A stretch of DNA of 64,000 bases from Octopus sinensis. Lineage: Eukaryota. The stretch spans positions 62,001-126,000 of the forward strand of contig NW_021836292.1 of assembly GCF_006345805.1 (NCBI RefSeq), given 5' to 3'. How positions within the stretch are numbered: position 1 is the first letter of the stretch; every line of letters starts with the position of its first letter. Shown here piece by piece: positions 45,672 to 46,593 of the stretch. The position numbers are program-made.

Positions 45672-45703
<32 letters not shown>

Positions 45704-46521
45704 TCACAATCAAGGAACGGCCATAATAGGCCATTCACCCACTAGAAATAACAGCCAAAAGCTTCAACCGCAAAATAACATCAATTCCGTAAACCAGGAG
45801 AAAATTAAAAAACATTTACCCTGTAATTTCTTATACGATGCACCGTTTCATCTACTGTTTAATGGTAAACTAACCTGATTAAATTAAATCAAGCCAATCT
45901 TCCATAGGCCCTTAGAATCATCAGTAAGAAATAGCCAAGTCGGAACAGATATTTTCACGAGGCATTTCCGACCCTGCCTCGGCGCTGGTGGCAAAAAAAT
46001 TCTACAAAATTTTTTGCCACCCTATATTGATTAATTATGAATGTTCTGGTTAATTCCGTAATGGAATCGGCGGCTTATATTTATTTGCTGCCGATAAATT
46101 TGGCGCGAGTGCGATGATTTGAAAATTTTAGGTCAGATATTGCCGAGGCAGGGTCGGAAATGCCTCGTGAAAATATCTGTTCCGACTTGGCTATTTCTTA
46201 CTGATGATTCTAAGGGCCTATGGAAGATTGGCTTGATTTAATTAATCAGGTTAGTTTACCATTAAACAGTAGATGAAACGGTGCATCGTATAAGAAATTA
46301 CAGGGTAAATGTTTTTTAATTTTCTCCTGGTTTACGGAATTGATGTTATTTTGCGGTTGAAGCTTTTGGCTGTTATTTCTAGTGGGTGAATGGCCTATTA
46401 TGGCCGTTCCTTGATTGTGATGTTGAACTTAAAAATGGTCTATGACTATTTAATTTTTTCCCACTATGCCGCTGGTGGCAAAAAAATTCTACAAAATTTT
46501 TTGCCACCCTATATGATTAAT

Positions 46522-46593
<72 letters not shown>

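What the first reader, a model, noticed from the sequence alone, without database searches (positions are those of the whole stretch)
45703..46522. Retrozyme-like non-coding element: about 487-nt monomer with a hammerhead, partial tandem repeat and a 280-bp inverted arm
Seen: the unit runs 45984-46470 and then restarts (46471-46522 repeats 45984-46036). An inverted copy of its middle (45703-45983) is fused in front, so hammerheads sit on both strands (46193-46298 plus, 45826-45932 minus). There is no ORF, and it is flanked by (TA)n. Established: Penelope-like elements have partial-tandem or inverted pseudo-LTRs with minimal hammerheads, and animal retrozymes are short hammerhead-bearing tandem non-autonomous retroelements that yield circular RNAs. 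Inference: this is a young non-autonomous, possibly circRNA-producing element mobilised by a PLE. The arms differ by only one indel that I noticed.
Basis: partly seen in the sequence, partly recalled or inferred. Interest (0 to 1): 0.9.

Follow-up and report, generated by a model that had tools for sequence, protein, structure and literature searches.

The report
Hammerhead-bearing Penelope-type non-coding retroelement insertion
This is most likely one recent insertion of a short, protein-less mobile element that carries a hammerhead-ribozyme-like motif and has the odd tandem-plus-inverted layout typical of Penelope-like retroelements, a known kind of element rather than a new one.

Summary
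A 487-nt unit (45984-46470) restarts for about 55 nt. A 281-nt inverted copy of its middle (45703-45983) is fused in front and differs by one T. There is no ORF, and (TA)n lies on both sides.

A type-I hammerhead descriptor fits on both strands: core CUGAUGA/GAAA, GUA cut site at 46290, 8-bp helix I and a 3-4-bp helix III with a palindromic loop. It was met in 0 of 300 (strict) or 4 of 300 (loose) shuffles. However, Rfam gives no hammerhead hit, and the 10.1-11.1 pair is U.U.

The layout matches published Penelope-like element (PLE) insertions: partial tandem, adjacent inverted 5'-truncated copy, extra tail at one end, (TA)n target.

This locus has only one ribozyme per strand, and its transcript would fold into a 280-bp duplex. 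So it cannot itself release a 487-nt circle.

No second copy lies in the window, and no eukaryotic genome could be searched. Copy number, tandem masters and a PLE partner stay untested.

Verdict: new member of a known kind, with moderate interest.

The parts
45676..45702 (.). Left flank: (TAT)n(TA)n, the presumed half of the microsatellite target
   Evidence: Read directly
45703..45983 (-). Inverted partial copy, the reverse complement of unit positions 159-438. Read as a 5'-truncated copy on the minus strand whose 3' end abuts the left (TA)n
   Evidence: 281 nt, 99.6% identical to 46142-46421, one extra T
45826..45932 (-). Hammerhead-like motif on the minus strand, mirror of the plus-strand one; helix II is 68 nt
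   Evidence: Descriptor hit with C3 at 45924 and H17 at 45834
45984..46470 (+). 487-nt non-coding unit (36.8% G+C)
   Evidence: Repeat spacing of 487; G+C and ORF check; folds well below shuffles, z = -5.1
45987..46027 (+). 35-nt hairpin (GGTGGC...GCCACC) plus CTATAT, copy 1, at the junction with the inverted copy
46142..46421 (+). Part of the unit that is also present in the inverted copy (right arm)
46193..46298 (+). Type-I hammerhead-like motif. Helix I is 8 bp, the core is CUGAUGA at 46201-46207, and helix II is 67 nt (U.U, then 4 bp, then a long stem-loop). GAAA is at 46275-46278. Helix III is 3-4 bp with a UGCA loop. The predicted cut is after A 46290
   Evidence: No Rfam hammerhead hit
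46422..46524 (+). 3' tail absent from the inverted copy: 48 unique nt plus the 55-nt restart of the unit (46470-46524). The restart holds hairpin copy 2 (46474-46508) plus CTATAT
46525..46593 (.). Right flank (TA)n
   Evidence: Tandem Repeats Finder 46522-46589, 35 copies
45308..45675 (+). Neighbouring element A, unrelated in sequence but with the same layout. Inverted arm 45308-45418, 58-nt spacer, direct arm 45477-45587. An 86-nt tail ends in a GGTG...CACC hairpin plus CTATAT (45629-45673). (TA)n lies on both sides

Best explanation
The region 45703-46524 is the product of one fairly recent retrotransposition of a short (487-nt unit), non-coding, hammerhead-bearing element. The element would have been copied by the reverse transcriptase/GIY-YIG endonuclease of a Penelope-like element (PLE), so it is a non-autonomous, retrozyme-like PLE derivative.

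Proposed course (inferred, not shown):
1. The enzyme cut both strands of a (TA)n tract and primed cDNA on both.
2. One cDNA started just after the 3'-terminal hairpin and ran 1.11 units (45984-46524, plus strand).
3. The other started about 90-100 nt further into the RNA and ran 281 nt (45703-45983, minus strand).
4. The two were joined head to head.

The copy runs past one unit length, and none of its ends lies at the ribozyme cut site. The template was therefore an uncleaved multimer, a circle, or two RNAs joined by a template jump. It was not a linear self-cleaved monomer.

The hammerhead would act in multimeric transcripts of tandem master copies elsewhere, probably as a dimer through its self-complementary helix III.

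This locus is a dead-end copy. It has one ribozyme per strand, and any read-through transcript folds into a 280-bp duplex that buries the ribozyme. That duplex would more plausibly feed small-RNA pathways.
For: Structure shown directly: the 487-nt unit, the 55-nt restart and the 281-nt inverted copy with a single T difference.

Hammerhead:
- All core positions are present (C3 U4 G5 A6 G8 A9, G12 A13 A14, A15.1-U16.1, H17=A) together with three helices.
- Sites per 64 kb in shuffles averaged 0.013 (4 of 300 shuffles) under the loose descriptor and 0 of 300 under the strict one.
- The hammerhead fold lies only 3.3 kcal/mol above the minimum free energy (-26.1 vs -29.4).
- The 12-nt helix III segment forms a perfect self-duplex of -17.5 kcal/mol. 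This is the dimer-prone, palindromic helix III described for metazoan and PLE hammerheads (PMC4209133).
- A U.U at the base of helix II is reported in the axolotl retrozyme motif HHR_Amex2 (PMC7229834).

Layout matches the literature:
- Craig 2021 describes this tandem-plus-inverted arrangement for PLE insertions.
- The anole PLE enzyme cleaves and extends both strands of AT-rich DNA and starts reverse transcription internally at two sites near a stem-loop, which explains a tail at one end (PMC11167929, Main text).

Orientation: the ribozyme is in sense orientation relative to the inferred 3' end.

Context in the window:
- A second, independent hammerhead lies at 17449-17534(-). It matches Rfam Hammerhead_1 end to end (20.2 bits, E 0.0073 on a 116-nt slice, below the gathering score of 34). 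It ends in (TA)n and has decayed copies at 39690-39840 and 41013-41163.
- Neighbouring element A has the same inverted-copy-plus-tail layout and the same terminal GGTG...CACC-CTATAT hairpin. The pattern gave 4 hits against 0.03 expected, but it was built after I had seen the data.
Against: - No Rfam hammerhead family scores the motif at E<=10: whole window at gathering, 1001 nt and 131 nt at E-value threshold.
- The G10.1-C11.1 pair, called highly conserved in PLE hammerheads, is U.U here. Helix II is 67 nt, far longer than the 4-8 bp stems described.
- No second copy of the unit lies in 64 kb, so mobility, family membership and conservation of the core are all unshown.
- No PLE RT or GIY-YIG ORF was found. 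I sent only 9 of the 33 ORFs of >=120 aa, plus 10 of the 23 ORFs of >=60 aa around 17.4-22 kb, to Pfam. The only RT hits were two LINEs.
- The tail (93-103 nt) is two to three times the published 30-40 bp.
- The similarity of the A and B tails is no better than the best of 200 shuffles by alignment score (28 vs a maximum of 28).
- The descriptor was partly tuned after the fact.
Confidence: 0.55

Rival explanations
1. It is a heavily 5'-truncated insertion of an ordinary autonomous PLE: only pseudo-LTR/3'-UTR material with its hammerhead. It would not be a distinct non-autonomous, retrozyme-like family.
For: [quoted passage not shown] Octopus vulgaris is reported to have 31 recently active PLE families (PMC13282606). 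The window's best named LINE match is an octopod. The same architecture arguments apply as for the main explanation.
Against: The copy restarts after exactly 487 nt. A template with a unit of 3 kb or more would not give this unless the pseudo-LTR itself carries a 487-nt internal repeat. No coding remnant lies in 45703-46524.
Confidence: 0.17
2. It is a DNA-level structure whose hammerhead-like motif is fortuitous. Candidates are a foldback or MITE-type transposon, a Helitron-like element with a 3' hairpin, or a replication template-switch inverted duplication at a fragile (TA)n tract.
For: There is a near-perfect 281-nt inverted repeat and a strong terminal hairpin. The left end reads A|TC as at a Helitron 5' end. 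The motif is not recognised by Rfam. (TA)n tracts are everywhere in this window: 145 runs of >=5 units covering 4.8% of it.
Against: The right arm is not terminal: 103 further nt belong to the repeated structure. No target-site duplication flanks the arms (ATATAT on the left, GTTGAA on the right). After the hairpin the sequence reads CTAT, not CTRR, and the hairpin abuts it rather than lying 10-12 nt upstream (the Helitron features are recalled, not taken from a call). Element A starts with AAGT, not TC. The chance rate of the hammerhead descriptor is low. A second, better hammerhead sits in the same window.
Confidence: 0.13
3. The inverted arrangement is an assembly or library artefact, for example a palindromic chimeric read. 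Only the 1.11-unit direct copy would then be real.
For: PLE-type inverted structures are said to cause assembly problems (PMC8557442). The arms are almost identical. Nothing in the window can test read support.
Against: Neighbouring element A shows the same layout with arms that have diverged to 97%, which an artefact would not produce. The junction is clean, with one shared base.
Confidence: 0.07

Closest known systems
Penelope-like element (PLE) insertions with pseudo-LTRs and minimal type-I hammerheads (Cervera & de la Pena 2014; Craig et al. 2021; Frangieh et al. 2024)
   Same: Partial tandem; inverted 5'-truncated copy directly upstream; extra sequence at one end only; insertion in AT-rich/(TA)n DNA; sense-strand hammerhead near the 3' end with an open helix I and a short palindromic helix III; paired hammerheads on opposite strands a few hundred bp apart.
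   Different: There is no RT/GIY-YIG ORF. The unit is only 487 nt. The tail is about 90-100 nt instead of 30-40 bp. Helix II is 67 nt, with U.U where PLE hammerheads keep G10.1-C11.1.
Animal non-LTR retrozymes (Cervera & de la Pena 2020; Li, Clavereau & Pollet 2026 preprint)
   Same: Non-coding, low G+C (36.8%), type-I hammerhead, unit of a few hundred nt, presumed dependence on PLE enzymes. A U.U at the base of helix II and dimer-dependent cleavage are reported for axolotl retrozymes.
   Different: Retrozymes are defined as tandem arrays (dimers to multimers) with a hammerhead in each 170-400-nt unit, and are seen as circular RNAs. Here there are 1.11 units of 487 nt, one hammerhead per strand, an inverted copy, and no expression data.
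Rfam Hammerhead_1 (RF00163)
   Same: Same core nucleotides, same order of helices, GUH cut site.
   Different: The motif does not reach E<=10 against the model. The other hammerhead in the window (17449-17534, minus strand) reaches 20.2 bits, still below the gathering score of 34.

Membership tests
Hammerhead ribozyme, type I | Conserved core CUGANGA ... GAAA ... UH, with A15.1-U16.1 | tested here: met
   Core at 46201-46207 and 46275-46278, GUA ending at 46290, and the mirror on the minus strand
Hammerhead ribozyme, type I | Three helices around the core, with helix I open | tested here: met
   Helix I is 8 bp, helix II is 4 bp plus a long stem-loop, helix III is 3-4 bp. 0 of 300 shuffles were as good
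Hammerhead ribozyme, type I | G10.1-C11.1 pair at the base of helix II | tested here: not met
   U.U at 46208/46274. A U.U is reported in the axolotl motif HHR_Amex2
Hammerhead ribozyme, type I | Score at or above the Rfam gathering threshold | tested here: not met
   No hammerhead family at gathering or at E<=10
Hammerhead ribozyme, type I | Self-cleavage | not testable with these tools
   Needs in vitro transcription
Penelope-like element insertion | Partial tandem (pseudo-LTR) | tested here: met
   55-nt restart 487 nt downstream
Penelope-like element insertion | Inverted 5'-truncated copy adjacent at the 5' end | tested here: met
   45703-45983 is the reverse complement of 46142-46421 and directly abuts 45984
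Penelope-like element insertion | 30-40-bp tail at one end only | tested here: inconclusive
   Extra sequence exists at the right end only, but it is 93-103 nt
Penelope-like element insertion | AT-rich or microsatellite target | tested here: met
   (TA)n on both sides. Such runs cover 4.8% of the window
Penelope-like element insertion | ORF with telomerase-like RT and GIY-YIG endonuclease | tested here: not met
   Longest ATG ORF is 26 aa. If PLE-related, it is non-autonomous
Animal non-LTR retrozyme | Tandem array with a type-I hammerhead in every unit | tested here: not met
   1.11 units; one hammerhead per strand
Animal non-LTR retrozyme | Unit of about 170-400 nt, low G+C, no ORF | tested here: inconclusive
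   Unit is 487 nt (outside the range), G+C is 36.8%, and there is no ORF
Animal non-LTR retrozyme | Many genomic copies and circular RNA | not testable with these tools
   0 further copies in the 64-kb window. No eukaryotic genome or RNA data were on hand
Helitron / Helentron-type element | 5' TC, 3' CTRR preceded by a hairpin, insertion between A and T (features recalled) | tested here: not met
   The 3' end reads CTAT directly after the hairpin. Element A starts with AAGT
MITE / foldback DNA transposon | Terminal inverted repeats flanked by a target-site duplication | tested here: not met
   The right arm is followed by 103 nt that belong to the repeat structure. No duplication flanks the arms

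The most novel reading that the evidence does not exclude
Elements A and B would define an undescribed group of PLE-dependent non-autonomous elements, probably in an octopod genome, that is recognised through a 3'-terminal GGTG...CACC-CTATAT hairpin.

- The enzyme would enter the RNA at two sites about 85-95 nt apart, giving a long tail. That would make the internal-initiation rule of PLE reverse transcriptases readable directly from genomic copies.
- Element B would in addition be the largest animal retrozyme so far (487-nt circles from tandem masters elsewhere).
- Its hammerhead would tolerate a 67-nt helix II and a U.U at 10.1/11.1.
Probability: 0.18. Interest if true: 0.6.

Novelty: new member of a known kind. 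Interest (0 to 1): 0.35.

Why it matters
If confirmed genome-wide, the locus gives a clean, young example of how PLE machinery builds its tandem-plus-inverted insertions. Both cDNA start points and the head-to-head junction are readable to the base.

Two unrelated neighbouring elements share the same terminal hairpin and tail length. That points to the RNA feature the enzyme recognises.

It would also extend hammerhead-bearing non-autonomous elements to a clade for which the library I searched holds no such report. Of the 5 papers holding both 'hammerhead ribozyme' and 'octopus', the 4 listed do not describe one.

It does not open a new kind of biology. PLE hammerheads, retrozymes and their link are all published.

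Tried and rejected
- **Rfam searches.** I searched the whole window at gathering, 45600-46600 at E<=10 and 46180-46310 at E<=10. None gave a hammerhead hit for the finding. The best hit, MIR5070 (30.9 bits against a gathering score of 100), only reflects the palindromic arms, and I rejected it. The mir-5728 hits (20.5 bits against 100) only reflect the 35-nt hairpin.
- **Self-BLAST.** I compared the element and neighbour A with the window and found no further copies.
- **Sequence relation of A to B.** The local alignment score of 28 equals the best of 200 shuffles. I rejected homology beyond the terminal motif.
- **Fourth pattern hit.** The hit at 4182-4218(-) is not a convincing hairpin, and BLAST shows no relation.
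- **Search for a PLE ORF.** Pfam on 9 of the 33 ORFs of >=120 aa found only two LINE RTs, one APE domain and a weak HTH_32. Pfam on 10 of the 23 ORFs of >=60 aa near the second hammerhead found nothing meaningful. The remaining ORFs were not scanned.
- **Helitron, MITE and assembly-artefact readings.** I considered these and ranked them low; see the rival explanations.
- **Host taxon.** The best named LINE RT match is Argonauta hians at 57%. My impression that the SINE-like repeats look octopod is recalled, not tested.
- **Not checked.**
  - Supplementary files of Cervera 2014/2020 and Craig 2021 were closed. They may already list this hammerhead variant.

Full report
**1. What is there**

- A 487-nt unit runs 45984-46470.
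- Its first 55 nt recur at 46470-46524. They are 100% identical over 45 nt and then show one T indel.
- The stretch 45703-45983 is the reverse complement of 46142-46421. It is 281 vs 280 nt, and the sole difference is one extra T opposite about 46242. That T falls in the apical loop of the proposed helix II.
- The region has no coding capacity. The longest ATG ORF is 26 aa and the longest stop-free stretch is 60 aa.
- G+C is 36.8%.
- (TAT)n(TA)n lies on the left (45676-45702) and (TA)35 on the right.
- Runs of (TA)>=5 cover 4.8% of this window. Flanking by them is notable but not rare here.

**2. The hammerhead**

I wrote a type-I descriptor: CUGANGA, helix II, GAAA, helix III, U-H, and a helix I closing the whole.

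On the plus strand:
- helix I is 8 perfect pairs (46193-46200 with 46291-46298);
- the core CUGAUGA is at 46201-46207;
- GAAA is at 46275-46278;
- helix III is ACG(G)/(U)CGU around a UGCA loop;
- the cut would follow GUA at 46290.

Helix II is unusual. It has a U.U where G10.1-C11.1 is expected, then 4 pairs, then a long well-paired stem-loop, 67 nt in all.

In 300 dinucleotide shuffles of the window, 4 held any site under the loose descriptor and none held one as good as this. I set the tolerance for the 10.1/11.1 mismatch and for a long helix II after seeing the candidate, so these figures flatter it somewhat.

The hammerhead fold costs 3.3 kcal/mol more than the minimum-energy fold, in which part of the core pairs with the 3' strand of helix III. 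The 12-nt helix III segment is self-complementary, with a duplex of -17.5 kcal/mol.

Against the motif:
- Rfam gives no hammerhead match at gathering.
- It gives none at E<=10 on 1001 nt or on 131 nt.

**3. How this compares with published hammerheads**

Passages of Cervera & de la Pena 2014 (PMC4209133) describe metazoan and PLE hammerheads as follows:
- They are thought to act as dimers.
- They have a large helix II and a highly conserved G10.1-C11.1 pair.
- Some occur as dual motifs 100-700 bp apart on opposite strands.

The present motif shares the palindromic helix III and the opposite-strand pairing. It fails the G10.1-C11.1 feature.

Passages of Cervera & de la Pena 2020 (PMC7229834) report a U.U at the base of helix II in the axolotl retrozyme motif HHR_Amex2. 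That motif cleaves weakly as a monomer and better as a dimer. The deviation therefore has a natural precedent.

**4. The architecture**

- **Craig et al. 2021** (PMC8557442, passages) state the following about PLE insertions:
  - They are often partial tandems, forming pseudo-LTRs.
  - They often carry a 30-40-bp tail at one end.
  - Some clades prefer (TA)n.
  - They usually hold hammerheads in the pseudo-LTRs.
- **Frangieh et al. 2024** (PMC11167929, whole Main text) worked with an anole PLE enzyme and show the following:
  - It cuts and extends both strands of AT-rich DNA.
  - It starts reverse transcription internally at two adjacent sites in a stem-loop, which explains the tail.
  - Hammerhead cleavage is not needed for insertion in vitro.

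The locus fits this picture point by point.
- A direct copy ends right after a strong 35-nt hairpin (46474-46508), next to (TA)n.
- An inverted copy has its own 3' end on the other (TA)n flank. It lacks the last 93-103 nt, which would be the tail.
- The two copies are joined head to head at 45983/45984.

Two inferences follow from the coordinates alone.
- The restart after exactly 487 nt means the template had a 487-nt period. It was a tandem transcript, a circle or a template jump, which argues against a truncated 3-kb PLE.
- None of the four copy ends lies at 46290/46291. The template was therefore not a linear self-cleaved monomer.

**5. What this locus can and cannot do**

There is one hammerhead per strand, so no transcript of this locus can be cut twice to release a unit. 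A read-through transcript folds into a 280-bp duplex with a 158-nt loop (-589.8 kcal/mol), which buries both motifs.

Their existence is untested. This locus is better seen as a dead-end copy and a possible source of double-stranded RNA.

**6. Context that helps**

(a) A second, unrelated hammerhead lies at 17449-17534 on the minus strand.
- It has a 6-bp helix I, a 12-bp helix II, and a 2-bp helix III with an AUAU loop.
- It matches Rfam Hammerhead_1 over the whole model at 20.2 bits (E 0.0073 on a 116-nt slice; gathering score 34).
- It ends in (TA)n 58 nt downstream.
- It has two decayed relatives, with the core destroyed, at 39690-39840 and 41013-41163.

Hammerhead-bearing repeats that end in (TA)n therefore exist in this genome. 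Rfam under-scores even the better one.

(b) Directly upstream lies element A (45308-45675), unrelated in sequence. Its parts, in order, are:
1. (TA)n;
2. a 111-nt inverted arm;
3. a 58-nt spacer;
4. the direct arm (97% identical to the inverted arm);
5. an 86-nt tail ending in a GGTG...CACC hairpin plus CTATAT;
6. (TA)n.

The gapped pattern for that terminus occurs 4 times in the window against 0.03 expected. The pattern is post hoc, two of the hits are the duplicate in B, and one is doubtful. Even so, the shared layout argues that the inverted copies are made by the insertion mechanism and are not assembly errors.

**7. Host and partner**

- A 772-aa LINE RT ORF (13548-15866) has its best named match in the octopod Argonauta hians at 57%.
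- A repeat survey of Octopus vulgaris lists 31 recently active PLE families (PMC13282606, passages).
- I found no PLE ORF in the window, but I scanned only some ORFs.
- The taxon is a lead, not a result.

**8. Novelty**

PLE hammerheads (2014), animal retrozymes (2020) and the claim that animal retrozymes are non-autonomous PLE derivatives (Li, Clavereau & Pollet, bioRxiv 2026; abstract and Introduction read) are all published.

Two full-text searches bear on cephalopods:
- 38 papers held at least 3 of 5 terms, and 15 were listed;
- 5 papers held both 'hammerhead ribozyme' and 'octopus', and 4 were listed.

Neither showed a report of such elements in cephalopods. Supplements were closed, and subscription papers are not in the library.

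I rate the finding a new member of a known kind. The features worth following up are the long helix II with U.U, the 487-nt unit, the roughly 90-nt tail, and the shared terminal hairpin.

**9. Verdict**

- PLE-type non-autonomous insertion: 0.55.
- Truncated autonomous PLE: 0.17.
- DNA-level structure with a chance motif: 0.13.
- Assembly artefact: 0.07.

Interest is 0.35.

Noticed in passing
17449-17534 (minus strand): A second, independent type-I hammerhead: 6-bp helix I, 12-bp helix II, 2-bp helix III with an AUAU loop, GUA cut site at 17455. It scores 20.2 bits against Rfam Hammerhead_1 (below the gathering score of 34). It ends in (TA)n 58 nt downstream. Pfam found no meaningful domain in the 10 neighbouring ORFs scanned.
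   Followed up: partly
39690-39840 and 41013-41163 (minus strand); 38529-41213: Two decayed relatives of the second hammerhead element, with the core destroyed. They lie inside a near-perfect 1323-bp tandem duplication whose unit includes a (TA)n tract.
   Followed up: partly
45308-45675: Neighbouring foldback-like element A, with the same layout and terminal hairpin as the finding. Its direct arm holds a hammerhead-like stretch at 45540-45564 with two core mismatches (G at position 3, U at position 12). This could be a decayed ribozyme or chance.
   Followed up: partly
13548-15866 (+) and 26790-29650 (-): Two LINE-type retrotransposons. The first is a 772-aa open RT frame, 89% identical to an unnamed database protein and 57% to an Argonauta hians protein. 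The second is split over several frames, with RT and endonuclease domains.
   Followed up: partly
17915-18118 and at least 15 other places; 46612-46736 with 19237-19352, 10303-10423, 32454-32582: Abundant short interspersed repeats. One of them directly follows the (TA)n on the right of the finding, so that microsatellite may belong to that repeat. My impression that they resemble octopod SINEs is recalled, not tested.
   Followed up: no
36792-36963: A perfect two-copy tandem of an 85-nt unit.
   Followed up: no
33164-33640 (minus strand): An ORF with a weak HTH_32 match (E 3.4e-4, below the Pfam cut-off). It is possibly a transposase remnant.
   Followed up: no
30520-31687: A very long (TA)n tract of about 595 copies, one of 37 tandem-repeat rows scoring >=100 in the window. 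The genome is unusually rich in dinucleotide repeats.
   Followed up: no
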